32,000 nucleotides of DNA from Pseudodesulfovibrio piezophilus C1TLV30 (GCF_000341895.1 NC_020409.1:840001-872000); one strand, 5' to 3'. Shown: positions 1-29,609, numbered from the stretch's first letter. Notes: generated by a model from the letters alone, not told the origin. Numbers and translations: made by a program.

Positions 1-1355
1 AAAACAGCTGCGGCCAACATTCCGGCCCCGGCAGAGGCAAACCAGCCATTATCCGGCACAGGGCTTGAGTCGGAAGCTGTGTCTTCTGTGAAAGCATGCC
101 GAAACAACCCGAGATAATAATAAATAGCCAGAGCTGAATTCAACACAAGCACTATGACCAACCAGTTATATCCGTGTCCCCAAGCCGAGGTGATGAGGAA
201 GAATTTCCCCATGAAGCCCATTGTTGGAGGCAGCCCGACAAGAGCAAAAGCTCCGGCTGCAAGTGAAAAAGCCAGTACCGGTGCCTTCTTATAAAGCCCA
301 TTAAGATCGTGAAGTTTGAGATTGCGACCATCCACAGCCACTCGACTGATGATCCAGAAGACCAACAGATTCATGACCAGATAAGCCAATGCATAGAAAG
401 CAGCCGCAGCCAATCCTTCAGGTGTGCCACTGACCAAACCAACCATGATATACCCAGCATGAGCAACTGAAGAAAATCCAAGAAGACGTTTCAAATCAGT
501 CTGGACCAATGCCGAAAGGTTGCCGAATGTCATGGAGCAAGCTCCCAAGACAGCGAGAAGCGTTGTCACTTCCAGACCGGGCTTCAAGAATGTTGCCATG
601 CGAACGAGCACCACGATGGCCCCCATCTTGGGCATGGTCGCCACAAAAGCAGCCGTCTCGTTACTCGCTCCCTGGTAAACATCAGGACACCAGAAGTGGA
701 AGGGAAACAGAGCCAGTTTGAAGAACATACCGCCTAGGAAAAGGCACAGGCCGGCAACAGCCATCGGGTTGTCAGCAAAATGCCAGTTCTTCCCTGCGAG
801 TTCAGCAATATACGTCGTGTGCTGACTGGCCATGATGTAGGACAATCCATACAGAGCTAATGCCGTGGCGACAGCCCCGAAAAGGATGTACTTGACCCCC
901 GCTTCCGCTGCGCCCTTGGATTTGGCTCTAAGCGGAATAATCGCGTACATTGAATAAGAAGCCAGCTCCAATGCCAGGTAAATTGTGATCAACTCGACGC
1001 AGGAAGCCAAAAGCATCAGGCCGAACGTTGAAAAACCAAGCAGCATGTAATAATCCGTTCTCTTCTCATCACTGATCGTCTTCTTACGCGATGCATTGAG
1101 AACGACTACGTAGAACCCAAAAGCTATGACTATCTTGAAGAATTGGGACATCATATCGACTTTGTAAACATCCCAGAACAGATACCCCTGTGAACCATAA
1201 GCGACAATTGAAACGAAAAAGCCGAGTCCCGCCCCAAAAGGAAGCCATTTTTCAACATCAGGTTTCCACTCCCTTGTGCCGCAGCTCTGAATCATCAGTG
1301 CAACGACAAGGAGAAGAAAATAGAGTTCCGGGACAATGAGTGTAATGTGAGACAC
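1..1355 (-). CDS. nuoN: NADH-quinone oxidoreductase subunit N (antiporter-like, ND2 type). The 3' end lies beyond the left window edge.
   Basis: Absent from the ORF track because it is truncated. The minus-strand frame is open from 1355 down to 1. GTG at 1355-1353 is preceded by AAGGGGG, which overlaps the nuoM stop. Hand translation reads VSHITLIVPELYFLLLVVALMI...MFFKLALFPFHFWCPDVYQGASNETAAFVATMPKMG...LKRLLGFSSVAHAGYIMVG, typical of NuoN. Confidence 0.85.
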   Translation of the reverse strand, partial: MSHITLIVPELYFLLLVVALMIQSCGTREWKPDVEKWLPFGAGLGFFVSIVAYGSQGYLFWDVYKVDMMSQFFKIVIAFGFYVVVLNASRKKTISDEKRTDYYMLLGFSTFGLMLLASCVELITIYLALELASYSMYAIIPLRAKSKGAAEAGVKYILFGAVATALALYGLSYIMASQHTTYIAELAGKNWHFADNPMAVAGLCLFLGGMFFKLALFPFHFWCPDVYQGASNETAAFVATMPKMGAIVVLVRMATFLKPGLEVTTLLAVLGACSMTFGNLSALVQTDLKRLLGFSSVAHAGYIMVGLVSGTPEGLAAAAFYALAYLVMNLLVFWIISRVAVDGRNLKLHDLNGLYKKAPVLAFSLAAGAFALVGLPPTMGFMGKFFLITSAWGHGYNWLVIVLVLNSALAIYYYLGLFRHAFTEDTASDSSPVPDNGWFASAGAGMLAAAV

Positions 1356-1368
1356 GTTCCTGGCCCCC

Positions 1369-2901
1369 TTATTTCTTGTCCGCCAAGACACTCAGGATGT
1401 CATTGGCGGCAGTTTGCATGGGTTGTTCGGCTTCAAGATGAGCCACTTTACGCTTATCGAAATCGTTCAACAGCTTATTGATGGATGGATCAACGATATT
1501 AAAAAACGGAGTGGGAGCCAGCCCTATCCAGAAAACAAAGACCGCTGGAAGAGCCAGATAGACCCACTCACGAGCATTGAGATCTCTCCATTTGCTGGCA
1601 GTAGTAGGCTTTCCCCAAGCCATTTTGAGAGACACGCGGAACATATAGGCCGCAGCAAGCAATGCACCGGGCACACACAGGAATCCGATCCATGTATTCT
1701 CCTGGAATGCCCCCACAAAAACCAGAATTTCACCCACAAACCCATTGGTTCCCGGGAATCCCAGAGAGGAGAGGGCCATCAGTCCCCAGAAGAACATGAA
1801 AGCAGGCATGTATTTGCCCAAGCCCATATTGTCTGAAATCTCACGACTGTGGCTTCGTTCATACACAGCACCTATCATCATGAAGAGTGCACCCGTGACG
1901 ATACCATGGTTGAGCATCTGGAAAAGCGCTCCCTCCACGCCTCGCATGTTGAAGAGGAAAATGCCAAGGGTTACGAACCCCATATGCCCTACCGAAGAGT
2001 ATGCAATCAACTTTTTAATATCGGACTGGCCCAAAGCAATAGCTCCGCCGTAAATGATGGAAACCAGTGAAATGGCAATCATCATCGGAGCGAAGTAGGC
2101 ACTAGCCGCAGGTGTGAGCGGAAGACAGAAACGAAGGAAACCATAGGTTCCCATCTTGAGCAACACGGCTGCCAGAATGACGGACCCTGCGGACGGAGCC
2201 TGAACATGCGCCGCTGGAAGCCATGTATGGAACGGGAACATGGGAACCTTGATGGCAAAGGCGAGGGCCATGGCAAGAAATGCCCAGAATTGAAATCTGA
2301 AGCTGAAGTTCATCTGCATCAGATCTGGAATGGCAAAGGTGCCCCCGGTTATTCTGAAAGCGACTATCGCCGCCAGCAGCAGAGTTGAACCTGCCAACGT
2401 GTACAGAAAGAACTTGAGTGACGCATATTTGCGATCATCCCCCCCCCAAACCGCGATGAGCAGATACATGGGGATAAGCATGGCTTCCCAGAACACATAA
2501 AACAGGACCAGATCAAGGGAGCAGAAAACACCCAGTACCGAAGAGGTCATGAATAACAGGCAGAAGTGAAACTCTTTGACCCGTTTCCCTATGTAGGTCC
2601 ACGAACACATGACGCATAACGGCAGGATCGCGATCGTCAATAAAACCATAAGTAAGCTGATACCATCCACGCCGAGGTAATACTGCAGTCCCCATTGATG
2701 GACCCAATCTATTTGCTCGACAAACTGGAATTCAGCGTTAAGTTGAAAGTTCATAAGAGGGATGGCTAGCAGCAGCTCAAGGATTGACACCGCAAAAGTG
2801 TACATCCTCACCACCTGCGGAGCCCGCAGGAAGAAAAGGCCACACGCCGCCACCATGGGGAATGCTATCAATACTGTAAGTACCGGATATCCGAAGTCCA
2901 A
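1369..2901 (-). CDS. nuoM: NADH-quinone oxidoreductase subunit M
   Basis: Lies within ORF 1369..3114. Classic NuoM motifs are present: FYVFWEAMLIPMYLLIAVWGGDDRKYASLKFFLYTLAGS and FAIKVPMFPFHTWLPAAHVQAPSAGSVILAAVLLKMGTYG. The start was trimmed to TTG at 2901 (in frame), which has AAGGAGAG 7 nt upstream and sits just after the upstream gene's stop at 2927. The track's 71-aa N-terminal extension overlaps that upstream gene and is not membrane-like. Confidence 0.88.
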   Translation of the reverse strand: MDFGYPVLTVLIAFPMVAACGLFFLRAPQVVRMYTFAVSILELLLAIPLMNFQLNAEFQFVEQIDWVHQWGLQYYLGVDGISLLMVLLTIAILPLCVMCSWTYIGKRVKEFHFCLLFMTSSVLGVFCSLDLVLFYVFWEAMLIPMYLLIAVWGGDDRKYASLKFFLYTLAGSTLLLAAIVAFRITGGTFAIPDLMQMNFSFRFQFWAFLAMALAFAIKVPMFPFHTWLPAAHVQAPSAGSVILAAVLLKMGTYGFLRFCLPLTPAASAYFAPMMIAISLVSIIYGGAIALGQSDIKKLIAYSSVGHMGFVTLGIFLFNMRGVEGALFQMLNHGIVTGALFMMIGAVYERSHSREISDNMGLGKYMPAFMFFWGLMALSSLGFPGTNGFVGEILVFVGAFQENTWIGFLCVPGALLAAAYMFRVSLKMAWGKPTTASKWRDLNAREWVYLALPAVFVFWIGLAPTPFFNIVDPSINKLLNDFDKRKVAHLEAEQPMQTAANDILSVLADKK

Positions 2902-2926
2902 AACAGCTCTCCTTAGATTGTCCGGC

Positions 2927-4720
2927 TTAGCCGAAGTACCAGACCAGGGCGAAGATGCCCAAACCAAGAACGGCGGCAAACGCGAGGTAATCCTGCAGAT
3001 TGGCGGTCTGGGCCTTGGCCCCCACCTTTCCGAGATCCCTGACGGCGTAGGCGCTTCCATCCACCACTGTATCAATGCCCTTCTTGTCGAAGACACTTGT
3101 TCCGGCTCCGGCACTGATCAAAGCTCGCAGACCAACAGTCCGATAGACTTCGGTCCAGAGATCATCAACCTTGGAAATTGGCCAGCATACAGCTTTCATG
3201 GTGACATTGCCGATGAGACGGTAAAACCAGTCAAAGTCCAGATTGAGAAACGCATGCGGTGTAATTATCTTCCGTGTCAGGTAGAATGCCAGACCAGAGA
3301 AACCGAGCAACAAGCTGGAATTAATGACCTTGTCGATATGCCACGGCTCAAAGTGATGCTCCACGGCGTATGGCAGGTAGTGATACAGCATTTCAGGGTA
3401 CACCCCTTGCGCAATGCAAAGAAGACCACAAATTCCCATGCCTATGTACATATTGAACGGCAACGGTTTAACCTCGCCGACATATTCCTTCTTGCCACCC
3501 CAGAATGCAAAGTACGGAAGTTTGATCCCTACAGAGATAAATGTTCCAACTGCGGCGACTTCCATGCCAAGCGCCAGGAGTGTATGGTGCGCTTCAGCAG
3601 CTCCGGCAATAGTCATTGTCTTGGAAATGAAGCCGTTAAACAAAGGCATTCCCGAAATGGACAATGCCGCCACCATATACCAAACCATAACCCAGGGCAG
3701 CTTATAGGCCAATCCCCCCAACTCGTTGAGTTTAACCGTACCGACTGCATAAAGGATAGCACCGGTGCCCATGAAGAGCAGCCCTTTATAGAGGATATGG
3801 GCATATGCGTGTGCCACGGCACCATTGAGCGTCATGGCTGTACCTATACCAATACCCGCGACCATGTATCCGACCTGCGAAACGATATGGTAGGACAGAA
3901 TACGCCGGGCATTATTTTCAATGCAGGCGTAGAGTACACCGAAAACCGCCATACAGGTACCGGCTACGGCAAGGATTTCCCATCCGGCAAAACCCCGAGC
4001 CAGCACATACACAGCAGTTTTAGTTGTGAAAGCACACATGTAAACGGCACCTGCTATCGATGCGCGAGGATATGCGTCAGGCAACCAGGCATGCAGGGGC
4101 ACGACAGCAGCATTAACGCAGAATCCGAGAAGGATCAGCCAATCATACAAATGCGCACTTTGCGGGTCTGCCCCCACAAAGGCAAAAGAACCGGTGGCCT
4201 TGTATTTCAATAGCAATCCGGCCAACAGGAAAAGACCGCCGACTGTGTGATACACAAAGTAGCGGAATCCAGCTCCGACGGACTCTTTGGTTCGAGCCTG
4301 CCAGATAAGGAATGTTGAGCCAATACTCATCAATTCCCAAAACAGAAAAACTGTCAGCAGATCTCCTCCAAAGACGCAACCAAAACCACCTGCCACATAG
4401 AGAGAGCCACACACATAGTGCCCTTTATCCTCTACGTGCATGCCGTAAATAGCCCCGACACAAGCGATGACGGCAAAGACCTGACCAAAAACGATGGACA
4501 GTTTATCAACTCGTCCAAGCACAAGCGCCTGGTCAAGGTAATGTAATGTTCCGTACATGCCAGGCTCAACGGCCATAATGCTGGCCAAGGCAATCAATGG
4601 CGCACAGAGCGCCAATGAGCCTCGAAAAGCTTTATTCAGCCAAAGATCCTTCGGAATGAGGGGAACGAGCGCCGCTAAGACAAGGAAAGCCATGGAGGGA
4701 TGGATGAAACTAGTCTCCAT
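2927..4720 (-). CDS. nuoL: NuoL-like / MrpD-like antiporter-type subunit (597 aa) with a C-terminal lateral-helix-like extension
   Basis: ATG at 4720 follows a strong AAGGAGG site. Proton_antipo_M-type motifs are present: LFWELMSIGSTFLIW, VPLHAWLPDAYPRASIAGAVYMCAFTTKTAVY and HAYAHILYKGLLFMGTGAI. The C-terminal ~90 aa (FDWFYRLIG...GIDTVVDGSAYAVRDLGKVGAKAQTANLQDYLAFAAVLGLGIFALVWYFG) resembles the NuoL amphipathic HL helix plus its terminal TM anchor. Assignment as the L-equivalent rests on motif inspection by eye only. Confidence 0.75.
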   Translation of the reverse strand: METSFIHPSMAFLVLAALVPLIPKDLWLNKAFRGSLALCAPLIALASIMAVEPGMYGTLHYLDQALVLGRVDKLSIVFGQVFAVIACVGAIYGMHVEDKGHYVCGSLYVAGGFGCVFGGDLLTVFLFWELMSIGSTFLIWQARTKESVGAGFRYFVYHTVGGLFLLAGLLLKYKATGSFAFVGADPQSAHLYDWLILLGFCVNAAVVPLHAWLPDAYPRASIAGAVYMCAFTTKTAVYVLARGFAGWEILAVAGTCMAVFGVLYACIENNARRILSYHIVSQVGYMVAGIGIGTAMTLNGAVAHAYAHILYKGLLFMGTGAILYAVGTVKLNELGGLAYKLPWVMVWYMVAALSISGMPLFNGFISKTMTIAGAAEAHHTLLALGMEVAAVGTFISVGIKLPYFAFWGGKKEYVGEVKPLPFNMYIGMGICGLLCIAQGVYPEMLYHYLPYAVEHHFEPWHIDKVINSSLLLGFSGLAFYLTRKIITPHAFLNLDFDWFYRLIGNVTMKAVCWPISKVDDLWTEVYRTVGLRALISAGAGTSVFDKKGIDTVVDGSAYAVRDLGKVGAKAQTANLQDYLAFAAVLGLGIFALVWYFG

Positions 4721-4970
4721 AATAGTCCTCCTTGCGCTTGATAAACGGCTGGACGATTTTTTTCATGATAATGACCATCCCCAATCCGACAAAGAGTCCG
4801 AACCCGGCAAAGAATCCGGGATATCTGTCGAGGCCGAAGTGCGGATGATGCGAGACGAATGGGACATTAAGAACCAGCAGCACAATGAGTACTACGAAGA
4901 AGATGATCTTCCACGTCCTTGCGTTGTCTCTCCATTTGGCGAGAAGCTCGCCTAACCCTTGTTGACTCAT
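4710..4970 (-). CDS. Small (86 aa) predicted two-TM membrane protein embedded in the nuo operon; no family recognised
   Basis: ATG at 4970 with AGGGGG 6 nt upstream. It starts 9 nt after the stop of the 515-aa gene, and its stop overlaps the start of the 597-aa gene by 11 nt. There are two hydrophobic segments, WKIIFFVVLIVLLVLNVPFV and FFAGFGLFVGLGMVIIM, a His-rich loop SHHPHFG, and a charged tail KRKEDYYGD. Confidence 0.6.
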   Translation of the reverse strand: MSQQGLGELLAKWRDNARTWKIIFFVVLIVLLVLNVPFVSHHPHFGLDRYPGFFAGFGLFVGLGMVIIMKKIVQPFIKRKEDYYGD

Positions 4971-4979
4971 ATCTACCCC

Positions 4980-6527
4980 CTAGAACTTGCCCAGAATGTT
5001 GACGAAGTTCAGGAATGTCTGCGGATACAGACCCAGGAACACCGAGATGGTTGCCGTAATGCACAGCGGAATGACCATGGTTTTGGATGCTTCGCCGTAC
5101 TGCTCGATATTGGCCTCAGGAGCCGCTGGCTTGAAGAAGGCACGGTACAGGATAGGGACAAAATACCCTGCGTTGAGCGCCGTACTGAGAAGAAGCAGAA
5201 GCAGAATCGGCCACTGGCCGGAATCCAGGGTACCGTTAATCAAATACCATTTGGAAACAAACCCGCACACGGGCGGCATACCGATCATGGATAATGAAGC
5301 GATCCCGAATGCACCGAATGTCCAAGGCATCCTGCGCCCCAAGCCGTCCATCAAACTGATTTTCTTGAGGTGAGTCGCCACATATATGGCACCCGCACCC
5401 ATGAAGAGCGTTATTTTGGAAAAAGCGTGGTGAGCAATATGCATCACGCCTCCCTGTATTGCCGTATCCGCCAGCATTGTCACACCGACGACGATATATG
5501 AGAGTTGTGCCACTGTTGAGTAGGCCAACCGAGCTTTAATATCGTCCTTGGTCAAGGCGATGAATGAGGCGACGACGAGGGTAAATCCCGCGATATACGC
5601 TGTCCCGTGGGCAATACTCAGATCCCCTAGAAGCGACCCCGGCGCACCGATATAGACCTGGCTCATGGTTAACAGTCCAGCTGTCTTTGTTCCGAACACA
5701 GACAGCACAATTCTACAGACGCAATAGACACCGGCTTTGACAACTGCCACTGCATGCAGCAAGGCCGAAACAGGTGTCGGTGCAACCATGGCAGAAGGCA
5801 GCCAGTTGTGAAACGGCATAAGAGCGGCTTTACCTACACCAAAGATGAACAGCCAATATGTCAGTGCGACCAACCTCGGATGCTCGGCCACAACCTGCGG
5901 GGAGAACATCCCATTAACGATATCTGCCAGGTGGAAATCAAGATTTCCGACCAGCACATAAGTCAAAACCATTGCAGGAAGCAGGAAGAGCTTGGACGTT
6001 CCCATCAGGTAAACGATATACTTGCGGGCACCGACCTTGGCCTCTTCATCTTCGTGATGATACACAAGAGGGTAGGTGAACACGGTAATGATCTCGTAAA
6101 AGAGATAGAGCGTGAACACATTGGCCGCGAGAGCCACCCCGACAGCACCAAAGATAGCGACGGCAAAACAGATGTAATACCGTGTCTGCGCGTGCTCATC
6201 GAGACCGCGCATATAGCCGATATTATAGCTGGTCACAAAGAACCAGAGGAACGGTGCAATCAACCCGAAGACCATTGAGAGGCCGTCGGCGGAAAAGGCG
6301 ATGGTCAAACCGGGAAGGATCGTCGTCACATGGCAATACCAGACCTCGCCTTTCAAGATGGCAGGGGCCATGGACAACATACAGACAAACGTGAGCGCGG
6401 CAGCAATGAAACTGACAGCCTCCCGTTTGTTTTCATCTTTTCTCATTAGCCAGACAAAGAGCGGTGCGATCAGTGTAATCACCACCGGCAGCAGAATCCG
6501 GGCACTTTCGATTGTAACCCCATTCAT
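4980..6527 (-). CDS. Additional MrpD/NuoN-type antiporter-like subunit (515 aa)
   Basis: ATG at 6527 lies 5 nt after the nuoK stop, with a GAAGGAA RBS. Motifs: LYLFYEIITVFTYPLV (TM5 Glu), GVGKAALMPFHNWLPSAMVAPTPVSALLHAVAVVKAG (TM7 Lys, TM8 His/Lys) and HHAFSKITLFMGAGAIY (TM12 Lys). There is no C-terminal lateral-helix extension. Confidence 0.8.
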   Translation of the reverse strand: MNGVTIESARILLPVVITLIAPLFVWLMRKDENKREAVSFIAAALTFVCMLSMAPAILKGEVWYCHVTTILPGLTIAFSADGLSMVFGLIAPFLWFFVTSYNIGYMRGLDEHAQTRYYICFAVAIFGAVGVALAANVFTLYLFYEIITVFTYPLVYHHEDEEAKVGARKYIVYLMGTSKLFLLPAMVLTYVLVGNLDFHLADIVNGMFSPQVVAEHPRLVALTYWLFIFGVGKAALMPFHNWLPSAMVAPTPVSALLHAVAVVKAGVYCVCRIVLSVFGTKTAGLLTMSQVYIGAPGSLLGDLSIAHGTAYIAGFTLVVASFIALTKDDIKARLAYSTVAQLSYIVVGVTMLADTAIQGGVMHIAHHAFSKITLFMGAGAIYVATHLKKISLMDGLGRRMPWTFGAFGIASLSMIGMPPVCGFVSKWYLINGTLDSGQWPILLLLLLSTALNAGYFVPILYRAFFKPAAPEANIEQYGEASKTMVIPLCITATISVFLGLYPQTFLNFVNILGKF

Positions 6528-6532
6528 AACAG

Positions 6533-6841
6533 CTATTCCTTCAAGGTAGTGATGTCACTGGTGCGGGCGGAACCGAACCGCCTGGCGACAACAACAACGA
6601 TTGCCAGCACGATGGTCGCTTCTGCTGCGGCAAGCCCCATGACAAAAAGGGTACCGAGTTGGCCGAGGACCGCATTGAATTCCGTGAGTTGAGCGGCCGC
6701 CACCATGGACAATCCCGCACCATTGAGCATAAGCTCCACACAGATCAACATACCGACAAGGCTTCTCCGCTGAGTCAGACCAAACAGGCCTGCGCACAAC
6801 AAAATCAACGCAACGATTTGATATAGTGTCAGGGCACTCAT
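6533..6841 (-). CDS. nuoK: NADH-quinone oxidoreductase subunit K
   Basis: Lies within ORF 6533..6868. The start was trimmed to ATG at 6841, which forms an ATGA overlap with the nuoJ stop. The ~100-aa 3-TM protein reads MSALTLYQIVALILLCAGLFGLTQRRSLVGMLICVELMLNGAGL...AAAEATIVLAIVV, typical of NuoK/ND4L. Confidence 0.85.
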   Translation of the reverse strand: MSALTLYQIVALILLCAGLFGLTQRRSLVGMLICVELMLNGAGLSMVAAAQLTEFNAVLGQLGTLFVMGLAAAEATIVLAIVVVVARRFGSARTSDITTLKE

Positions 6842-7353
6842 CTCTTCTCCCCTCCTCTCTTTTCCCAAGTCAACAAGACGGCACCAGACATGGCGACCAT
6901 AAGAATGACCGAGATAAGTTCAAAGGGCAGAAAATACGACCCAAGAAGCTCACCGCCCAATTGCTTAATAGTGACCTCTGTTGGGACCGCAAGAGACTGG
7001 ACCGGCCTGGTCATGATCAGCCAGCCGAGAACCCCGGCCGGAGCAAGAGTGGCCGCAAGCCCGAACACATACGTTTTCATAGGGGCCTTTCCGGATTCAT
7101 CTCCACCTCGTTCGGCCCGCGTCAGCATGACTGCGAAGAAGATGAGGACAGAAACGGCTCCCACATAAATCAGGAGTTGCATGAAGGCCATAAACGGAGT
7201 TGCCAGAAGCATATACATGCCGGCTACACCGATCAGTGTGGTGATTAGCCCTACCAGGGCACGGACCAGACTGGAACTTGAGACCGCAACGATTGAGCCT
7301 CCCAAAATGACCAGCGTGTAGATACAAAATGCGACTTTTGCCATTATTTCCAT
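6838..7353 (-). CDS. nuoJ: NADH-quinone oxidoreductase subunit J
   Basis: ATG at 7353 sits one nucleotide after the nuoI stop and is preceded by GGAGG. The product has a hydrophobic ND6-like profile (FMQLLIYVGAVSVLIFFAVMLT). Its position between nuoI and nuoK agrees. Confidence 0.82.
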   Translation of the reverse strand: MEIMAKVAFCIYTLVILGGSIVAVSSSSLVRALVGLITTLIGVAGMYMLLATPFMAFMQLLIYVGAVSVLIFFAVMLTRAERGGDESGKAPMKTYVFGLAATLAPAGVLGWLIMTRPVQSLAVPTEVTIKQLGGELLGSYFLPFELISVILMVAMSGAVLLTWEKRGGEKR

Positions 7354-7354
7354 G

Positions 7355-7942
7355 TTATGCCTCCTTCCCCGATACGGCGGATTGAGCCGTACCTTTGGGA
7401 GCCGGAGCAGACAACTCCGTGGCCTGCTTTTTCAAGCGGGCGATAAGATCTATATGCATCTCCTCCCGGCTTGTTGCCACCCAGTATATATTGTTGGAGA
7501 ACTTCAACGACTTGGCCGGGCAGTTTTCGATGCAGGTCCCGCACAAGCTGCACAAAGTATAGTCATAGGTGAATTTGGCCGGATTCTTCGGCGCTTTGGG
7601 TTTGACGACTTTTTCACCAGCTTCTTCAGCCCGTGCCCATTCCGCTTCCTGTTCAGGTGTCGGTTTGGGAGCCTTTTGCTTGACAACTTTCAGACATTTA
7701 CTCGGGCAGTTGGTCACACACATCATGCACGAAATGCACTTGGGCATGGCCGGATCCTTAGGCTTGCCTATAAGCTCAATGTGCCCACCGTATGTTGACA
7801 GGTTCTCGTCGTCGATGACTTCACGCGGATAATGGACTGTGACCAATGGCTTGCAAAAATACTTGCCTGTGATCTTCAATCCCACCAGCAGAGACCAACA
7901 ATCGAGAATTGGCTGTATGACGTTTTTCTTGAATGTACTCAT
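7355..7942 (-). CDS. nuoI: NADH-quinone oxidoreductase subunit I (2x[4Fe-4S] ferredoxin-type) with an internal low-complexity insertion
   Basis: Lies within ORF 7355..8014, trimmed to ATG at 7942 (MSTFKKNVIQ...), 11 nt after the nuoH stop. Two CxxCxxCxxxCP motifs are present, CISCMMCVTNCP and CSLCGTCIENCP. The HYPRE-type N-terminal segment is typical of NuoI. Confidence 0.85.
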   Translation of the reverse strand: MSTFKKNVIQPILDCWSLLVGLKITGKYFCKPLVTVHYPREVIDDENLSTYGGHIELIGKPKDPAMPKCISCMMCVTNCPSKCLKVVKQKAPKPTPEQEAEWARAEEAGEKVVKPKAPKNPAKFTYDYTLCSLCGTCIENCPAKSLKFSNNIYWVATSREEMHIDLIARLKKQATELSAPAPKGTAQSAVSGKEA

Positions 7943-7953
7943 AATGTGACACC

Positions 7954-8928
7954 CTACAACTTGATCAGCAACGCTGTAGCCAACAGATTTGCTGTAGCCA
8001 GCGGCAGAAGCCATTTCCAGTTGATGTTCAAAAGTTGGTCAAACCGAACCCGAGGGTAGGTCCAACGAACCCAGATCATGAAGGAAAGCAGAGCATATGT
8101 TTTGAGAAGCATCCACCACCATCCGTCAATACCGGGGATGGGACCATGAAAACCTCCCAAAAAGAGCACCGCACACACGGAGCTGATCACGACCATATAT
8201 CCGTACTCCGCCATGAAGAAGAGACCAAATCCCATGGACGAATATTCGGTATGAAAACCCGCAGTCAACTCGGACTCGGCCTCCGCCAGGTCAAAGGGAG
8301 CACGATTCGTTTCACCAAACATCGCCACAATGAAGATAATAAAAGCAAGAGGCTGTTTCCATATAAACCAGTTACCGATATGTCCGCTCTGCTGCGCTGT
8401 GATCTCGGACAGGTCCAGAGTCCCCGTCATGAATGAGATGGTCAAAACCACCAACAAAAGCGGAATTTCGTAGGCTACGGTCTGAGCTACTGCACGAGCC
8501 GCACCAAGCACACCCCACTTATTGTTTGAAGCCCAACCAGCCAGAATCACAGCTAATCCGTTGAAACTGGAAAATGCCAATATCAACAACAGACCAAGAT
8601 TCACCTTCATTCCAATGACCGAGGGACCATAGGGGATAGGCATAAAGAGGAGCAGAACCGGAATCATGGACAGAATCGGTGCCATCCAGAAAAGGATTGC
8701 ATCGGAATTATCCGGGGTCAGGAGCTGCTTCCCCATAAGCTTCAAGCCATCAATAAGAGGCTGAAGAATTCCATGGGGACCGACTTCAAAAGGACCGGGG
8801 CGGCGCTGGATATGTCCTGCGAATTTGCGTTCACAATAAACCAGCACCAGTGCATTGAGACCTAACCATACCATGGCCCCAATGGCACCTATGACCAAAG
8901 GTATCAAATGTTGTAAGAATGCGTTCAT
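7954..8928 (-). CDS. nuoH: NADH-quinone oxidoreductase subunit H
   Basis: 324-aa ORF. ERKFAGHIQRRPGPFEVGPHGILQPLIDGLKL and GETNRAPFDLAEAESELTAGFHTEYS are ND1/NuoH signatures. Confidence 0.9.
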   Translation of the reverse strand: MNAFLQHLIPLVIGAIGAMVWLGLNALVLVYCERKFAGHIQRRPGPFEVGPHGILQPLIDGLKLMGKQLLTPDNSDAILFWMAPILSMIPVLLLFMPIPYGPSVIGMKVNLGLLLILAFSSFNGLAVILAGWASNNKWGVLGAARAVAQTVAYEIPLLLVVLTISFMTGTLDLSEITAQQSGHIGNWFIWKQPLAFIIFIVAMFGETNRAPFDLAEAESELTAGFHTEYSSMGFGLFFMAEYGYMVVISSVCAVLFLGGFHGPIPGIDGWWWMLLKTYALLSFMIWVRWTYPRVRFDQLLNINWKWLLPLATANLLATALLIKL

Positions 8929-8937
8929 AGATCCACC

Positions 8938-10110
8938 CTACCTGTCGATTTCCGGGATAATCAGGTCAAGGCTGCCCAAAATGGCGACTGCATCAGCCAA
9001 GATGGTGCCTGTTGCCGCCTCGGCAAAAGCATGCATGTTGGAGAACCCCGGAGCGCGCAATTTGACGCGATAGGGAATCTTGCTTCCATCAGAGGCCACA
9101 TAGACACCGATCTTTCCACGACCACCTTCAACTGTGCAATAAGCTTCCCCTGCCGGTGGTTTCATGGAAGGCTTGGGAGCCTTGTCCATGATGTGTTTTC
9201 CTTCAGCCCCATCAAGTTGTTCCAATGCCTGCTCAATAATGCGCAGAGATTGTTCCATTTCCGCGACTCGGACATGATACCGGCCAGCCGAACACGCCGA
9301 CTGCTGTGTCGGGATATCAAAATCAAACCGATCATAAATGGAATACGGTTCGTCCTTGCGAACATCCGAACACACCCCTGCACCACGGAGGACAGGGCCG
9401 CTACAGCCGTAACGTTGGCACATATCCTTATCAATAATACCGACCCCTTCGATGCGTCGTCTGAGAATGAGATTCTCGGTGACAAGATCGTGATACATCG
9501 GCAACCGTTCCCGAAAATGCGGAATGAATGCCTTCATCAATTCAAGACATTTGTCATCGAAATCCATCTGCACGCCGCCAACCCGAAAGTTTGAATACGT
9601 CAAGCGGGAAGCCGATGGTCGTTGCAGGATATCAAGAATCATCTCACGATCATCAAACGCATACATAATCGGTGTAAACGCACCGAGATCGAGAATATAC
9701 GCCCCCCACCAGAGCAAATGTGAAGTAAGGCGGTTGAATTCGGTCATAATCACGCGCAGATATTCTGCGCGTTCCGGCACTTCAATGCCCATCAATTTTT
9801 CCACTGCGCCGACATAAGCCCAGTTCCATGCCATGGGGTGCCCATAATCGACACGGCCCATATTGGGGATAAAGCCTCCCCAGGTTTGTGTTTCGCCCAT
9901 TTTTTCATGCATGCGGTGCAGGTAACCCAGTACGGGTTCGGCGCGGACAATGTATTCGCCGTCAACCTCAATCACGATCCTCAGCACGCCGTGTGTCGAC
10001 GGGTGCTGCGGACCCATATTAATGATCAGGGTTCCGTCCTGCTTTCCGGCCTCGAACTTGCGGGTGTAGAAATCACCCGCCATCTGTTCCATATTTTGGT
10101 AAGCCGACAT
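8938..10110 (-). CDS. nuoD: NADH-quinone oxidoreductase subunit D (49-kDa type)
   Basis: 390-aa ORF. It has NMGPQHPSTHGVLR near the N-terminus and ends LDLIIPEIDR. There are no NiFe-binding CxxC pairs, so it is Nuo-type rather than a hydrogenase large subunit. Confidence 0.9.
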   Translation of the reverse strand: MSAYQNMEQMAGDFYTRKFEAGKQDGTLIINMGPQHPSTHGVLRIVIEVDGEYIVRAEPVLGYLHRMHEKMGETQTWGGFIPNMGRVDYGHPMAWNWAYVGAVEKLMGIEVPERAEYLRVIMTEFNRLTSHLLWWGAYILDLGAFTPIMYAFDDREMILDILQRPSASRLTYSNFRVGGVQMDFDDKCLELMKAFIPHFRERLPMYHDLVTENLILRRRIEGVGIIDKDMCQRYGCSGPVLRGAGVCSDVRKDEPYSIYDRFDFDIPTQQSACSAGRYHVRVAEMEQSLRIIEQALEQLDGAEGKHIMDKAPKPSMKPPAGEAYCTVEGGRGKIGVYVASDGSKIPYRVKLRAPGFSNMHAFAEAATGTILADAVAILGSLDLIIPEIDR

Positions 10111-10151
10111 AAACTTTTAGTCCGGTTTATATACCGACCGGTGGCCCCGGC

Positions 10152-10679
10152 CTACGCATCAGAGGCGTCCTCGGCCTCTGCTTCCGCAAACAATTCTTCA
10201 ATTTCCCTGGTACACGAGATAATCTCGCCAAGGTTCAGGAGATCCTTGATGGATTGACGCACCTTCGCAGTCTTGACGAGTGGATGAACATCCACAGCCT
10301 CGGCAGGCATCAACAACGGCACGAGATTCGGATTGCCTTCGAAGTGAATTCCGTGAAAGTCACGGACTTCCCGCTCGTGCCATTCTGCCCCCTGAAAAAC
10401 CCCTGCTATGGAAGGCAGCGAGGGAGTCGCTCCGGAGACCAGCACACGCAATGTCACCCGCTCGTCAACGGTCCATCGGTTGAAGTGATAGAGCACTAAA
10501 AAGCCCTCTTCAAAGTCCAATGCCAGGACATCTTCGAGGGCATACTCGGCCTCATACAGTTTCTGCGCTGCCTTGAGGATTTGATTCGGAGCAAGAAAAA
10601 TCGACCAGACATGTCCTGTCGTTTCCCTATCCTGCATTGACACACATTGTGTCGGGATATCTGCAAGTACTTGTAACAT
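10152..10679 (-). CDS. nuoC: NADH-quinone oxidoreductase subunit C (30-kDa type)
   Basis: 175-aa ORF with the motif FQGAEWHEREVRDFHGIHFEGNPN. It has an acidic C-terminal tail and lies between nuoB and nuoD. Confidence 0.85.
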   Translation of the reverse strand: MLQVLADIPTQCVSMQDRETTGHVWSIFLAPNQILKAAQKLYEAEYALEDVLALDFEEGFLVLYHFNRWTVDERVTLRVLVSGATPSLPSIAGVFQGAEWHEREVRDFHGIHFEGNPNLVPLLMPAEAVDVHPLVKTAKVRQSIKDLLNLGEIISCTREIEELFAEAEAEDASDA

Positions 10680-10682
10680 GAC

Positions 10683-11228
10683 TTACCCCTCCACCTTGGC
10701 AGCCACAGGCCACCAACGCTTTCCGGTAATCAGCCGCTGCAATTGGAAGAATCCCTCCAGAAGTCCTTCCGGTCTCGGCGGACAGCCCGGGACATACACG
10801 TCAACAGGAATGAGTGTATCCACTCCCTCAATCACGTTATAATTGTCCTTTATTTTGAACGGGCCACCAGAAATGGCACAGTTCCCCATTGCAATAACCC
10901 ACTTGGGACCAGGCATCTGCTCATATAAGCGGACAACCGCCGGTGCCATCTTCTTGGTGACAGTTCCGGCAACGATCATCACATCTGATTGACGCGGCGA
11001 TGGCCGAAAGACTTCGGCCCCGAAACGCGCCATATCAAAACGGGCCATCCCTGTTGCCATCATTTCGATGGCACAGCACGCCAGGCCGAAGGTCATGGGC
11101 CATAGGGACATGGAGCGGCAGACATCAAAAATATCCTGCGCCAGCTGAACATTGACGATAGGCGGGTCCAGGCGGTGATGCCCGGCCGTCAAATAATCAT
11201 TGGGAACTACTGAATCCTGCGCGGCCAT
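10683..11228 (-). CDS. nuoB: NADH-quinone oxidoreductase subunit B (PSST, N2 cluster)
   Basis: Lies within ORF 10683..11249. The start was trimmed to ATG at 11228, which has AAGGGG 7 nt upstream. Cluster N2 ligand motifs are present: [22 protein letters not shown] and VPGCPPRPE. It overlaps the nuoA 3' end by 22 nt. Confidence 0.9.
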
Positions 11229-11584
11229 GTAAACACCCCTTTCGCCCAAAAATAGACGACGGAAAGAATAAGGAATGACAGAAAGATGAAAACCTTTACA
11301 AAGGGAATCCAGCCCGCAGCGTCAGTATACGCCGTGGAAACGGGAAACAGATAAAGGACATCCACGTCAAAGGCGAGGAAGATCAGGGCATATACATAAT
11401 ACGATACCCCCCATCGTGCCCATGAGCTGCCGTAAGGGACCATACCGCATTCATACGGCATTCCAATGTCCCCTCCCCGAGCTTTCGGGGCAAACAGCGC
11501 GGCCAAAATCAACGGCCCGCAGGCAAAAAGAAGCCCAGCGAGCAAAAAAAGAATCATTGCAAAGTGCAGCCAGCTAAAAACCAT
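11207..11584 (-). CDS. nuoA: NADH-quinone oxidoreductase subunit A
   Basis: Lies within ORF 11207..11590, whose first codon is TTG. ATG at 11584 has AAGGA 7 nt upstream. The 3-TM ND3-like protein carries PYECGM and [13 protein letters not shown]. Confidence 0.85.
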
Positions 11585-11749
11585 ACCCAAGTCCTTTGGC
11601 AGTAATTTTGCTACGCCCTCATAGGTAAAACTTACTCCTAGAGGTTACTGCCCCTCATGCCTTTTTAAAAGGACCAAGTCAAGTACATCGCTCTTTTTTT
11701 CTCTAATGTCCGACCTTCTAAGTCTGCTTTTTCATTCACTCTGCTTTGC

Positions 11750-11905: not shown

Positions 11906-13243
11906 CTATTTCGGGACGCCACAATCCTTGAAAGTGCCAAATCTGACACCACCGCGTTTTTTAGCCCCATACATGGCTGCATCTGCCCGGCTGATCAAGG
12001 TAACGCAATCCTTGCCATCATCCGGATAATAGCTGATCCCGACGGTCGCACCGACCTTGATGGATTCTCCCTGAATGATAAATGGCGAATCCATCACCTC
12101 AAGAAGATTGCCGGAGACGAATACTGCGGACTCAGGATCTTCCAGGTTAGTCAGAAGAACTCCGAACTCATCGCCCCCCAAACGCGCAAGTGTGTCGGTT
12201 TCACGGGTTCTGCGCATCAATCGCTCGGCCACCATACGTAACAGTTCATCCCCTGTTTGATGTCCATAGGTGTCGTTGACCCGTTTAAAATCGTTGAGAT
12301 CGACAAAGAGAACAGCGACCTTGGTTCCGTACCGTTTTGCATGAGCCAGGGCGTGTTCCGCTCTGTCAAAAAAGAGATGACGATTGGGCACCCCCGTCAG
12401 ACTGTCGACTGTGGCAAGGTGCTTCAATTCCATTTCATTCAACTTACGCTTAGTGACGTCTTCCAAAACACCTTCGATGAACTCCGTCTCTTTTCCTTCC
12501 AGGGTAACCAGCCGGGAACTTTCGGAGCACCAAATAATTTCACCATCTTTTTTTCTGGCGCGAAATTCAAAATTGGAAACAAAGCCATCCCTTTTGAGAA
12601 CCTTGATATATTCTTCGCGTTCATCAGCATCAATCATGAGATGTTGCCGCATGGCTTCGACACCAACCATTTCATCCGCAGAGTCGTATCCGAATAATCG
12701 GACCATCGCCGGATTCACCTCGGAAAGCACGCCTGTGACCGTAGCCTGAAAAATACCTTCTACAGCACGCTCAAAGATTGATCTGTATTTTTCCTCGGCA
12801 ACCCCTAAGGCGTGTTCTGACTTTCTGCGTTGATCAATCTCCCGTTCAAGTAACATTTTCTGCTCATTGAGCTGAAGAAAAACCTGAACTTTGCTTTTGA
12901 GGGTCTCGACATCAACTGGTCGAAATAGATAATCAACAGCTCCGGTTTCATATCCCTGCCTGACATTGTCCTCATCCTGAAAAATGGCTGTGATGAAAAT
13001 GATCGGGACATGCCTCCCCTTATCAAATTCCTTGATCTTCAAGGCGGTCTCATAACCGTTCATGCCCGGCATCTGGATATCCAGTAAAATCAGGGCAAAA
13101 TTGGTATGTCTCACCAACTCTATCGCTTCGATCCCGCTCTTTGCCTGGACAATATCGCACCCTTCCTGAGCCAGCATATGGTTCAGCAGGGCAAGATTGG
13201 TCTGCGAGTCATCAACTATGAGAACCTTTTGCATCTGTGTCAT
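11906..13243 (-). CDS. Response regulator with REC, PAS and GGDEF (diguanylate cyclase) domains
   Basis: REC domain: VLIVDDSQTNL...ILLDIQMPGMNGYE...PIIFITA. A coiled-coil linker and PAS domain follow (KYRSIFERAVEGIFQ). GGDEF domain: DSLTGVPNRHLF...RLGGDEFGVLL. The track start at 13246 is GTG, and I prefer the adjacent ATG at 13243. Confidence 0.85.
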   Translation of the reverse strand: MTQMQKVLIVDDSQTNLALLNHMLAQEGCDIVQAKSGIEAIELVRHTNFALILLDIQMPGMNGYETALKIKEFDKGRHVPIIFITAIFQDEDNVRQGYETGAVDYLFRPVDVETLKSKVQVFLQLNEQKMLLEREIDQRRKSEHALGVAEEKYRSIFERAVEGIFQATVTGVLSEVNPAMVRLFGYDSADEMVGVEAMRQHLMIDADEREEYIKVLKRDGFVSNFEFRARKKDGEIIWCSESSRLVTLEGKETEFIEGVLEDVTKRKLNEMELKHLATVDSLTGVPNRHLFFDRAEHALAHAKRYGTKVAVLFVDLNDFKRVNDTYGHQTGDELLRMVAERLMRRTRETDTLARLGGDEFGVLLTNLEDPESAVFVSGNLLEVMDSPFIIQGESIKVGATVGISYYPDDGKDCVTLISRADAAMYGAKKRGGVRFGTFKDCGVPK

Positions 13244-13260
13244 CACGCCACCTCATCACC

Positions 13261-15105: not shown

Positions 15106-15115
15106 ACATAAAAAA

Positions 15116-15136
15116 GCCGTTTCAGAAAGAAACGGC
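15116..15136. repeat. Left copy of the 21-bp target-site duplication (terminator hairpin GCCGTTTC-AGAAA-GAAACGGC)
   Basis: Identical to 16714-16734. It is preceded by an A-tract at 15110-15115. Confidence 0.75.
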
Positions 15137-16713: not shown

Positions 16714-16734
16714 GCCGTTTCAGAAAGAAACGGC
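16714..16734. repeat. Right copy of the 21-bp target-site duplication (terminator hairpin)
   Basis: Identical to 15116-15136. It is followed by a T-tract at 16735-16740. Confidence 0.75.
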
Positions 16735-16756
16735 TTTTTTATGCGTCTTCGTCTTC

Positions 16757-21436: not shown

Positions 21437-21512
21437 CGCGGGGTGGAGCAGTTGGTAGCTCGTCGGGCTCATAACCCGAAGGCCAGAGGTTCAAGTCCTC
21501 TCCCCGCTACCA
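21437..21512 (+). tRNA. Initiator tRNA-fMet (anticodon CAT), copy 1
   Basis: The sequence CGCGGGGTGGAGCAGTTGGTAGCTCGTCGGGCTCATAACCCGAAGGCCAGAGGTTCAAGTCCTCTCCCCGCTACCA is near-identical in layout to E. coli tRNA-fMet. It has a 1:72 mismatch, three G:C pairs closing the anticodon stem, anticodon CAT at 21470-21472, and an encoded CCA. Confidence 0.92.
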
Positions 21513-21712: not shown

Positions 21713-21788
<76 letters not shown>

Positions 21789-26011: not shown

Positions 26012-26021
26012 TCTTTTCTCC

Positions 26022-28428: not shown

Positions 28429-28432
28429 GGCA

Positions 28433-29209: not shown

Positions 29210-29220
29210 GCTTGCTTCTC

Positions 29221-29421
29221 CTAGCCTCCACCGACAAAGCGGAGGACTTCAAGGTGATCACCGTTGTTGAGTTCGACTGAATCGAATTCAACAGACGGAA
29301 TGATCTGCCCGTTCAACTCAATGACCACCGTGTCGGAGTCAATTCCATTGAGCTCCAGAAGATCCAGAAGACTCGCGGAGCCCGCTACTTCGACATTCTT
29401 GCCATTCATCACGATATCCAT
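29221..29421 (-). CDS. thiS: Sulfur carrier protein ThiS
   Basis: 66 aa ending in VGGG. The track start at 29427 is TTG. ATG at 29421 has AAGGAG 6 nt upstream. Confidence 0.85.
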
Positions 29422-29459
29422 GACCAACTCCTTGCCACGAAACGGACCGTGGCTTCACC

Positions 29460-29490: not shown

Positions 29491-29521
29491 GTGCAATTAT
29501 TCCATAACAGAAAGTATGCAG

Positions 29522-29602: not shown

Positions 29603-29609
29603 TCAGTGA

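What the first reader, a model, noticed from the sequence alone, without database searches (positions are those of the whole stretch)
2927..6527. Complex I-like operon encodes four antiporter-like subunits plus a small 2-TM protein instead of the canonical NuoL-M-N trio
Canonical operons place a single nuoL between nuoK (6533-6841) and nuoM (1369-2901). Here three tightly coupled genes occupy that position.

- A 515-aa MrpD/NuoN-type subunit. It has a TM5 Glu (LFYEIITVF), a TM7 Lys (GVGKAALMPFHNWLP), a TM8 His/Lys (LLHAVAVVKAG) and a TM12 Lys (HHAFSKITLFMGAG). It has no C-terminal extension.
- An 86-aa 2-TM protein.
- A 597-aa subunit whose last ~90 residues (…GIDTVVDGSAYAVRDLGKVGAKAQTANLQDYLAFAAVLGLGIFALVWYFG) look like the NuoL lateral amphipathic helix plus its anchor TM.

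Neither large protein shows the NuoL-type GWEGVG TM5 signature, and both look Mrp-like.

By eye alignment, the 597-aa protein has Asn (CVNAAVVPLHAWLP, about residue 203). NuoM and NuoN of the same operon have the conserved TM7 Lys at this position (AIKVPMFPFHTWLP and FFKLALFPFHFW).

The gene spacing of 5 nt, 9 nt and an 11-nt overlap argues for co-translation and stoichiometric assembly.

If all are incorporated, the membrane arm would hold four pump modules. That implies a higher ion/electron ratio, or a mixed H+/Na+ specificity. Complex I variants with a duplicated NuoM and an elongated NuoL helix have been reported in other phyla. This arrangement differs from those: the extra module sits on the K-proximal side in gene order, is Mrp-like, and comes with a dedicated small subunit.
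Basis: partly seen in the sequence, partly recalled or inferred. Interest (0 to 1): 0.75.

Follow-up and report, generated by a model that had tools for sequence, protein, structure and literature searches.

The report
Complex I with four pump subunits
A sulfate-reducing bacterium's complex I-like operon replaces the usual NuoL gene with a three-gene cassette (two antiporter-like pumps plus a tiny membrane protein); this is real, but the two-pumps-for-NuoL layout was already described as "green complex I", and the same cassette also occurs in stand-alone Mrp cation/proton antiporters.

Summary
On the minus strand the window carries nuoABCDHIJK, D1 (515 aa), S (86 aa), D2 (597 aa), then nuoMN, with no nuoEFG. 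Gene spacings and motifs are as described. The TM7 Lys-to-Asn change in D2 is genuine: all 32 complex-I-linked D2 orthologs examined have Asn.

The novelty claim does not hold. Two MrpD-like subunits replacing NuoL is the published "green complex I" of rhizobia. A Rhizobium plasmid carries the same nuoK-D1-small ORF-D2-nuoM-nuoN block, including a homolog of S.

What I add:
- S is a conserved 2-TM family (1476 representative clusters) with no Pfam, NCBIfam or PDB match.
- D1-S-D2 is a cassette. It also ends stand-alone mrpEFG-MbhDE-MnhB-MrpC-D-D1-S-D2 antiporter operons in Rhodobacteraceae, Gammaproteobacteria, Nitrospirota, Planctomycetota and Methanocellales.
- D1 has a NuoL/MrpA-class core but no lateral helix. 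D2 has an MrpD-class core and carries the helix and anchor.
- D2's helix tail is about 23 residues longer in four-pump complex I operons than in most three-pump Mrp operons. This supports a membrane-arm order N-M-D1-D2.

Verdict: a new member of a known kind, of moderate interest. There is still no structure or biochemistry.

The parts
11207..11590 (-). nuoA (start codon uncertain)
   Evidence: ORF. PF00507 is recorded for the matching gene on L001, a contig that carries the identical D1 protein.
10683..11249 (-). nuoB (start uncertain; JGI aa)
   Evidence: PF01058.
10152..10679 (-). nuoC
   Evidence: PF00329.
8938..10110 (-). nuoD. It is followed directly by nuoH, so no nuoEFG lies between them.
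   Evidence: PF00346. No N-module genes were found among the large ORFs of the rest of the window.
7954..8928 (-). nuoH
   Evidence: PF00146.
7355..8014 (-). nuoI (2x[4Fe-4S] ferredoxin-like; start probably downstream, JGI aa)
   Evidence: Fer4 families.
6838..7353 (-). nuoJ
   Evidence: PF00499.
6533..6841 (-). nuoK
   Evidence: PF00420 at 68.8 bits; NF004320 at 69.3 bits, above its cutoff of 57.
4980..6527 (-). D1: a 515-aa antiporter-like subunit with a NuoL/MrpA-class core (it has the PF00662 N-terminal motif) and no lateral helix. Residues: E145, K233, H258/K264, K371, K426.
   Evidence: Best PDB relatives are MrpA, MbhH, NuoL, NdhF and ND5. The D1 family is monophyletic in 94/100 bootstraps.
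4710..4970 (-). S: an 86-aa conserved 2-TM subunit with motifs HHPHFG...PGF...IKRxEDYYGD. Its last 11 nt overlap the start of D2.
   Evidence: 1476 representative clusters match it. AlphaFold2 predicts a hairpin. No PDB, Pfam or NCBIfam match.
2927..4720 (-). D2: a 597-aa antiporter-like subunit with an MrpD-class core plus a NuoL/MrpA-like C-terminal TM15, lateral helix and TM16. Asn203 replaces the TM7 Lys.
   Evidence: The D2 family is monophyletic in 100/100 bootstraps.
1369..2901 (-). nuoM (canonical; E139, K218, K249, E391; exact start codon uncertain)
   Evidence: TIGR01972 at 572 bits; residues.
1..1355 (-). nuoN, running off the left edge of the window (start near 1355; C-terminal end cut off)
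   Evidence: An open frame with no stops, matching the NuoN called on L001; residues E110, K193, K223, K364.

Best explanation
The window comes from a Pseudodesulfovibrio species. The closest D2 relatives are Pseudodesulfovibrio proteins at 85-89% identity.

It encodes a 13-gene complex I-like enzyme, NuoABCDHIJK-D1-S-D2-NuoMN, without the NADH-oxidising NuoEFG module. NuoL is replaced by a three-gene cassette.

Proposed roles (all inferred):
- D2 does NuoL's architectural job. It sits at the distal end of the membrane arm and carries the lateral amphipathic helix and the TM16 anchor that clamp the row of pump subunits.
- D1 is an additional complete pump subunit between D2 and NuoM.
- S is a 2-TM accessory subunit that goes with the D1/D2 pair.
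- The arm order is therefore (H/A/J/K)-N-M-D1-D2, with four antiporter-like modules. That allows up to about 5 ions per 2 electrons instead of 4.

The cassette is not specific to complex I. The same D1-S-D2 unit terminates stand-alone group-3-like Mrp antiporter operons. It therefore looks like a portable distal pump module that was joined to a NUO11-type enzyme.

The electron donor is not encoded here. Reduced ferredoxin or another low-potential donor passing electrons to menaquinone is the usual proposal for Desulfovibrio Nuo. From standard potentials, that reaction is the one that can pay for a fifth ion.

Shown here: gene content, orthology, residue conservation, tail length and predicted folds. 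Inferred: co-assembly, subunit order, stoichiometry and donor.
For: - Complete cores. D1 and D2 both score on PF00361 and carry conserved Glu/Lys/His residues. D1 orthologs in nuo operons keep E, K, H, K, K, K in 32 of 32 sequences.
- Fixed synteny. nuoK-D1-S-D2-nuoM-nuoN recurs in about 32 loci from Desulfovibrionaceae, Ca. Adiutrix, Telmatospirillum and Rhodospirillales, and on a Rhizobium lentis plasmid. The Rhizobium 84-aa ORF is homologous to S.
- Coupling. The three genes have tight spacing or overlap and their own ribosome-binding sites.
- D2 has the NuoL/MrpA architecture according to AlphaFold2 and Foldseek.
- Tail length, measured from the D.DW.YR motif to the C-terminus:
  - 74 residues in E. 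coli NuoL (two neighbours to span).
  - 79-82 residues in 35 Mrp-type D2 proteins whose operons have three pump genes.
  - 102-104 residues in all 33 complex-I-type D2 proteins whose operons have four pump genes.
  - An extra 23 residues as helix is about 35 Å, roughly one subunit width.
- Published reviews state that lateral-helix length tracks the number of antiporter-like subunits (PMC8165549). A 26-aa insertion is reported where one more subunit is added (PMC9040806).
- The same cassette sits in mrpE-F-G-MbhD/E-MnhB-MrpC-D-D1-S-D2 operons.
- Nuo-type and Mrp-type D1 proteins form one clade (94/100 bootstraps), as do the D2 proteins (100/100).
- nuoEFG was not found in the window. Ferredoxin is the donor suggested for Desulfovibrio Nuo (PMC4287179).
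Against: - No direct evidence of co-assembly exists. There is no structure and no proteomics.
- The helix 'ruler' has exceptions. Nitrospirota Mrp-type loci show only three pump genes in the cluster but have tails of 112 residues. The tail of the Nitrospinota locus is cut off by the contig end.
- The net TM15-to-TM16 linker of D2 is only about 11 residues longer than in E. coli NuoL. This is because D2 is shorter before the motif (my count).
- The helix region of the model has low confidence (pLDDT 41-72).
- D2 lacks the TM7 Lys that is conserved in the canonical NuoL, NuoM and NuoN sequences compared here. D2 may therefore not pump in the standard way.
- Deep branches of the tree are unresolved. 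The direction of cassette transfer between Mrp and Nuo is unknown.
Confidence: 0.68

Rival explanations
1. D1-S-D2 keeps an Mrp-like cation/proton exchange function inside the complex. The enzyme would then couple redox-driven H+ pumping to Na+/H+ antiport or to Na+ export, as proposed for MBH and MBS, rather than simply adding a fifth proton.
For: - The cassette is shared with bona fide Mrp operons.
- D2's closest solved relatives by sequence are MrpD and MbsH'.
- The invariant TM7 Asn in complex-I-type D2 proteins points to altered ion handling.
Against: - The Mrp subunits MrpE, F, G and B and the MbhD/E-type proteins are present in the stand-alone operons but absent here.
- The Mrp-type D2 proteins mostly keep Lys at TM7 (37 of 44). 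Asn is therefore not an Mrp hallmark.
- The antiporter-like subunits themselves are described in the literature as proton paths (PMC8165549).
Confidence: 0.12
2. All four large subunits assemble, but in a different order. D1 (with S) would sit distal to D2 or to one side, outside the span of the lateral helix, with S acting as the tether.
For: - S is encoded between D1 and D2 and has no counterpart in canonical complex I.
- The net TM15-to-TM16 linker is only about 11 residues longer than in E. coli NuoL.
Against: - Within the D2 family, the tail is 23 residues longer exactly where the operon has one more pump gene downstream of the helix (33 complex-I-type against 35 Mrp-type loci). That lengthening would be unnecessary if D1 lay beyond D2.
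- S is also present in three-pump Mrp operons with short tails.
Confidence: 0.1
3. Only three pump modules are functional. D1 or D2 would be a structural or degenerate paralog, or D1 and D2 together would amount to a 'split NuoL'.
For: - D1 has the NuoL/MrpA-class core but no helix, while D2 has the helix on an MrpD-class core. The NuoL features are thus divided between two genes.
- D2 lacks the TM7 Lys.
Against: - Both proteins have full-length cores matching about 290 positions of PF00361, each with TM5 Glu, TM8 Lys, and TM11 and TM12 Lys conserved in every ortholog.
- Each has its own NCBIfam equivalog model.
- Conservation spans several phyla and one archaeal order.
Confidence: 0.07

Closest known systems
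'Green complex I' of Rhizobium and Sinorhizobium (Degli Esposti & Martinez-Romero 2016, FEMS Microbiol Ecol fiw084; known here through PMC9040806 and PMC7415380)
   Same: - Two MrpD-like subunits replace NuoL.
- The block nuoK-D1-small ORF-D2-nuoM-nuoN is identical in content and order on the Rhizobium lentis plasmid.
- D1 is about 50% identical, D2 about 44% and S 29%.
- D2 has the same tail length (104 against 103 residues) and TM7 Asn.
   Different: - The rhizobial operon is rearranged (J-K-D1-S-D2-M-N-A-B-C-D-E-F...) and includes nuoE and nuoF, so it has an NADH module.
- The window has the canonical A-to-K order and no nuoEFG.
- The host here is an anaerobic sulfate reducer, presumably with menaquinone.
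Stand-alone group-3-like Mrp antiporter operons (mrpEFG-MbhD/E-MnhB-MrpC-D-D1-S-D2)
   Same: They contain the orthologous D1-S-D2 cassette in the same order. The families are monophyletic across both contexts.
   Different: - They have no Nuo redox or quinone module.
- They have three pump genes in most loci.
- The D2 tail is 79-82 residues.
- TM7 is Lys in 37 of 44 sequences.
Nitrospira '2M' complex I and Ca. Manganitrophus Complex_I_3 (Chadwick et al. 2018; PMC9040806)
   Same: They have extra antiporter-like subunits in the membrane arm, accompanied by a lateral-helix extension of about 26 aa. Complex_I_3 uses two MrpD-like subunits related to the green-type ones.
   Different: - The 2M enzyme duplicates NuoM and keeps a true NuoL.
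- Complex_I_3 has five pump subunits.
- I did not examine those loci myself.
MbsH/MbsH' pair of the archaeal MBS complex (PDB 6U8Y; PMC8165549)
   Same: - It has two adjacent antiporter-like subunits, and the second (MbsH', 618 aa) carries the lateral helix plus TM15-16.
- D2 scores best on MbsH' and D1 on MbsH.
- MbsH also departs from Lys at the TM7 position (E219).
   Different: - The redox module differs (sulfane sulfur reductase).
- A sodium module is present.
- No S homolog was found in any PDB entry.
- Identity is only about 22%.
Canonical NuoL / MrpA
   Same: D2 shares the overall fold: core plus TM15, lateral helix and TM16, with TM-score about 0.7. D1 shares the core class and the PF00662 N-terminal motif.
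   Different: In NuoL and MrpA, one polypeptide holds both the L-class core and the helix. Here they lie on two different proteins. TM5 reads FYEI or FWEL rather than GWEGVG.

Membership tests
Green-type complex I (two MrpD-like subunits in place of NuoL) | Two antiporter-like genes that are not NuoL, encoded between nuoK and nuoM | tested here: met
   In the tree, 0/100 bootstraps joined EcNuoL to the D1 family as an exclusive clade, and D2 is its own family at 100/100.
Green-type complex I (two MrpD-like subunits in place of NuoL) | Orthology of D1 and D2 to the rhizobial pair | tested here: met
   D1 is about 50% identical over 98% of its length to Rhizobium and Sinorhizobium plasmid loci. 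The block is the same in L002. The D1 family has 94/100 and the D2 family 100/100 bootstrap support. Whether the complex-I-type members form a single subclade is unresolved (58/100 and 38/100).
Green-type complex I (two MrpD-like subunits in place of NuoL) | [quoted passage not shown] | tested here: not met
   The window has A-B-C-D-H-I-J-K-D1-S-D2-M-N. The rhizobial locus has J-K-D1-S-D2-M-N-A-B-C-D-E-F.
Green-type complex I (two MrpD-like subunits in place of NuoL) | Exact published definition of the family, including presence or absence of the N-module | not testable with these tools
   The defining paper (fiw084) is not held. The rhizobial locus has nuoE and nuoF; the window has none.
11-subunit (NUO11) complex I-like enzyme | nuoA, B, C, D, H, I, J, K, M and N present, with nuoEFG absent from the operon | tested here: met
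11-subunit (NUO11) complex I-like enzyme | A single canonical NuoL | tested here: not met
   D1 scores 210 bits on the NuoL model NF005141 and D2 scores 132 bits, against a cutoff of 556 bits. Degli Esposti 2015 uses the label 'NUO11+M' for such Desulfovibrio operons (PMC4758237).
Mrp (CPA3) cation/proton antiporter | MrpE, MrpF, MrpG and MrpB (MnhB) subunits encoded with the antiporter-like subunits | tested here: not met
   They are absent from the window operon. They are present in the stand-alone relatives L060, L037 and L036.
NuoL / MrpA-type distal subunit (applied to D2) | A 14-TM core followed by TM15, a lateral amphipathic helix and a TM16 anchor | tested here: met
   AlphaFold2 secondary structure. 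Foldseek TM-score of 0.71-0.72 to MrpA and NuoL. The NuoL HMM aligns through residue 590.
NuoL / MrpA-type distal subunit (applied to D2) | Conserved TM5 Glu / TM7 Lys pair | tested here: not met
   TM7 is Asn203, and Asn in 32/32 complex-I-type orthologs.

The most novel reading that the evidence does not exclude
D1-S-D2 may be a self-contained, portable 'distal pump cassette'. It would have been plugged into both Mrp antiporters and complex I-like enzymes in bacteria and archaea.

In this reading:
- The so-far unnamed 2-TM protein S is an obligate third subunit.
- The NuoL functions are divided between an L-class core without a helix (D1) and a D-class core with the helix (D2).
- The invariant TM7 Lys-to-Asn change in the long-helix D2 subtype marks a distinct coupling mechanism at the end of extended pump arrays.

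None of the papers I could read mentions S or the Mrp link. The original 2016 paper could not be checked.
Probability: 0.4. Interest if true: 0.55.

Novelty: new member of a known kind. Interest (0 to 1): 0.38.

Why it matters
The number of pump modules sets the ion-per-electron ratio, and so the energy yield, of the main entry point to the respiratory chain.

A four-pump, ferredoxin-type complex I in sulfate reducers would change energy-budget models for these organisms.

The D1-S-D2 cassette gives a natural experiment on how lateral-helix length, the TM5/TM7 ion pair and accessory subunits scale with the number of pumps.

The finding does not open a new category. Its value lies in a well-defined target for structure determination, namely the Desulfovibrionaceae Nuo enzyme, and in an unannotated conserved small subunit that gene callers miss.

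Tried and rejected
- **Ordinary NuoL.** Rejected for both proteins. NCBIfam NuoL scores are far below cutoff. In the tree, 0/100 bootstraps joined EcNuoL to the D1 family as an exclusive clade, and D2 forms its own family.
- **S as a spurious ORF.** The JGI annotation called the opposite strand. Rejected because of 80 homologs, invariant residues, cross-phylum synteny and a ribosome-binding site.
- **Asn203 as an alignment artefact.** Rejected on three independent alignments.
- **C-terminal 137 aa of D2 against the PDB.** A phmmer search found nothing, so I used MAFFT alignment to E. coli NuoL and AlphaFold2 instead.
- **S profile against the PDB.** Only chance-level hits, E of 0.6 or worse.
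- **A strict 'helix length equals subunit count' rule.** Only partly upheld. Nitrospirota Mrp-type loci are exceptions.
- **Deep phylogeny.** Whether D2 is sister to MrpA/NuoL, or D1 to HyfB, is unresolved (12/100 and 29/100 bootstraps).
- **Literature not held.** Degli Esposti & Martinez-Romero 2016, Chadwick 2018 and Torres-Bacete 2011 could not be read.
- **Phrase search.** A search for 'four/fourth/extra/additional antiporter-like subunit' returned nothing.
- **Multimer modelling.** Not available with these tools.

Full report
**1. What is in the window**

The minus strand between about 11590 and the left edge carries one operon: nuoA, B, C, D, H, I, J, K, then three ORFs, then nuoM and nuoN. 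The last of these runs off the window.

- The three ORFs are D1 (4980-6527, 515 aa), S (4710-4970, 86 aa) and D2 (2927-4720, 597 aa).
- Each gene has a Shine-Dalgarno-like sequence. The one for D2 (AAGGAGG) lies inside the end of S.
- nuoD is followed directly by nuoH. None of the other large ORFs examined in the window is a NuoE, F or G.
- An identical D1 protein is encoded on a JGI metagenome contig with the same gene order.
- The nearest named relatives of D2 and S are Pseudodesulfovibrio proteins at 85-89% identity. The source is therefore a Pseudodesulfovibrio species.

**2. Checking the observation**

- D1 and D2 both match PF00361. Each passes the cutoff of its own NCBIfam equivalog: NF006236 at 739 bits and NF009310 at 701 bits. 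They are far below the cutoffs of the NuoL, NuoM and NuoN models.
- I aligned 193 sequences including E. coli NuoL, M and N.
  - D1 has E145, K233, H258/K264, K371 and K426.
  - D2 has E129, N203, K234, K312 and K367.
- The Asn-for-Lys change at TM7 of D2 also appears in the HMMER alignments to MrpD and MbsH'. It is present in all 32 complex-I-linked D2 orthologs, so it is a real and conserved feature.
The TM12 Lys of D1 is K426.
- AlphaFold2 on D2 (pLDDT 79, pTM 0.78) gives TM15 at 462-482, a 58-residue helix at 496-553 followed by a shorter one, and TM16 at 574-596. Foldseek returns MrpA, NuoL and NdhF with TM-scores around 0.7.
- S is a genuine gene.
  - It has 80 homologs down to 34% identity, with invariant His, Pro, Arg, Glu, Asp and Tyr residues.
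  - A profile of it matches 1476 cluster representatives in a library of 1.84 billion.
  - AlphaFold2 predicts a two-helix hairpin.
  - It has no Pfam, NCBIfam or PDB relative. One public annotation missed it.

**3. It is a known arrangement**

- A paper on Ca. [quoted passage not shown] It cites Degli Esposti & Martinez-Romero 2016 (PMC9040806). A rhizobial review repeats this (PMC7415380).
- I tested the link directly. D1 finds about 50%-identical loci on Rhizobium, Sinorhizobium and Ensifer plasmids.
- The annotated Rhizobium lentis locus reads nuoJ, nuoK, 'MrpD family' (487 aa), hypothetical (84 aa), 'Na+/H+ antiporter subunit D' (591 aa), nuoM, nuoN, nuoA-D, nuoE, nuoF. The 84-aa ORF aligns end to end with S.
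- Degli Esposti 2015 had already labelled a Desulfovibrio africanus operon 'NUO11+M' (PMC4758237).
What differs from the rhizobial case is the canonical gene order and the absence of the NADH module.

**4. What the cassette is**

- A scan of one genome per species with the S alignment returned 80 loci. Classifying all ORFs against the window's proteins gave two contexts.
  - About 32 loci have nuoABCDHIJK-D1-S-D2-MN. They come from Desulfovibrionaceae, Ca. Adiutrix, an unclassified deltaproteobacterium, Telmatospirillum and Rhodospirillales.
  - About 47 loci have no nuo genes. They come from Rhodobacteraceae, Gammaproteobacteria, Planctomycetota, Nitrospirota, Nitrospinota and Methanocellales archaea.
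- In the second group, Pfam shows mrpE, mrpF, mrpG, MbhD/MbhE-type, MnhB and MrpC, followed by one or two further antiporter-like genes and then D1-S-D2. This fits the irregular 'group 3' Mrp clusters of the Mrp review (PMC5703873).
- In a neighbour-joining tree I included E. coli NuoL/M/N and HyfB/D/F and a canonical Bacillaceae MrpA and MrpD.
  - All D1 proteins form one clade (94/100 bootstraps).
  - All D2 proteins form another (100/100).
  - Deeper nodes are unresolved.
- HMM and PDB score rankings place the two cores in different classes.
  - D1 falls in the MrpA/NuoL/ND5/NdhF class and has the PF00662 N-terminal motif.
  - D2 falls nearer MrpD and MbsH'.
- The L-class core and the lateral helix, which share one polypeptide in NuoL and MrpA, are therefore on separate proteins here. 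The solved MBS complex has a comparable pair, MbsH plus a helix-bearing MbsH' (PMC8165549).

**5. Does the arm hold four pumps?**

No experiment exists, so I looked for a sequence signature.

- Published reviews state that lateral-helix length tracks the number of antiporter-like subunits it ties together (PMC8165549). One extra subunit is reported to come with a 26-aa insertion (PMC9040806).
- I measured the tail from the conserved D.DW.YR motif, where the predicted helix starts, to the C-terminus.

| Protein set | Pump genes in operon | Tail (residues) |
|---|---|---|
| E. coli NuoL | 3 | 74 |
| 35 Mrp-type D2 | 3 | 79-82 |
| 33 complex-I-type D2 | 4 | 102-104 |
| 2 Methanocellales D2 | 4 | 108 and 156 |

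- The 23 extra residues correspond to about 35 Å of helix, roughly one subunit width. This favours the order N-M-D1-D2 with D2 distal, and argues against D1 lying beyond D2.
- Caveats:
  - Nitrospirota Mrp-type loci have only three pump genes in the cluster but tails of 112 residues. The Nitrospinota locus is cut off by its contig end.
  - D2 is shorter than E. coli NuoL before the motif, so the net TM15-to-TM16 linker is only about 11 residues longer.
  - The helix region of the model has low confidence.
- TM7 Asn occurs in all complex-I-type D2 proteins and in the long-tailed Nitrospirota, Nitrospinota and Methanocellales proteins plus one other. The short-tailed Mrp-type proteins keep Lys. 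I have no tested explanation for this link.

**6. Most likely mechanism**

[quoted passage not shown] It takes electrons from a low-potential donor; ferredoxin is the usual proposal for Desulfovibrio Nuo (PMC4287179), and the donor of 11-subunit enzymes is still open (PMC11238625). It reduces menaquinone and drives four antiporter-like modules plus the proximal path.
- From standard potentials (my own knowledge):
  - Ferredoxin at about -420 to -500 mV passing electrons to menaquinone at -74 mV yields about 67-82 kJ per electron pair. That can pay for about 4-5.5 ions at 150 mV.
  - NADH to menaquinone yields about 47 kJ, which cannot.
  - A five-ion machine is therefore plausible here only with a low-potential donor, or when running in reverse.
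- Na+ involvement is possible but untested. The Mrp subunits usually linked to the Na+ path are absent from this operon.

**7. Verdict**

The architecture is a member of an already described kind.

The points that may be new are:
- The conserved small subunit S.
- The cassette shared with Mrp antiporters.
- The division of NuoL features between D1 and D2.
- The invariant Asn at TM7 of D2.

Noticed in passing
window 15107-16743 (transposase ORF 15201-16658, minus strand): An insertion sequence of about 1.6 kb with a DUF772/DDE_Tnp_1_6 transposase sits between the epimerase and glycosyltransferase genes. It is flanked by a perfect 25-nt direct repeat, AAGCCGTTTCAGAAAGAAACGGCTT, which is itself a hairpin. 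The metagenome contig L001, which carries the identical D1 protein, has these two genes adjacent with no insertion. The element therefore appears to have inserted into, and duplicated, a terminator-like palindrome.
   Followed up: partly
L001 11573-11836; window 4710-4970: The JGI gene call on the contig that carries the identical D1 protein missed the conserved small gene S. It annotated an 87-aa ORF on the opposite strand instead, and started D2 nine codons late (588 aa). S-type genes are probably under-annotated in metagenomes.
   Followed up: yes
L037 and L038 (Methanocellales MAGs), 835-10125: These archaeal Mrp-type operons have four antiporter-like genes (D, D, D1, D2) plus S. The D2 tail is unusually long: 108 residues in L038 and 156 in L037, against about 80 in the bacterial three-pump versions.
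   Followed up: partly
L036, L039-L042 (Nitrospirota / Nitrospinota MAGs): Mrp-type operons with only three antiporter-like genes in the cluster nevertheless have TM7 Asn in D2, and the Nitrospirota ones have a long D2 tail (112 residues; the Nitrospinota D2 in L039 is cut off by the contig end). This breaks the simple rule linking tail length to subunit count. L039 also has an extra 1-kb gap between D1 and S.
   Followed up: partly
window 21437-21512 and 21713-21788 (+): Two tRNA-Met (CAT) genes lie 276 nt apart and have identical Rfam scores. They are probably a tandem duplicate.
   Followed up: partly
window 24707-29609 (-): A thiamine biosynthesis cluster (thiC, a ThiF-family gene, a radical-SAM/BATS ThiH-like gene, thiG) has a TPP riboswitch at 29507-29609 upstream of it.
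   Followed up: no
window 11906-13246 (-): A response-regulator-PAS-GGDEF protein is encoded immediately upstream of nuoA on the same strand, separated by about 300 nt. The same neighbour is present on L001. A regulatory link to the nuo operon was not examined.
   Followed up: no
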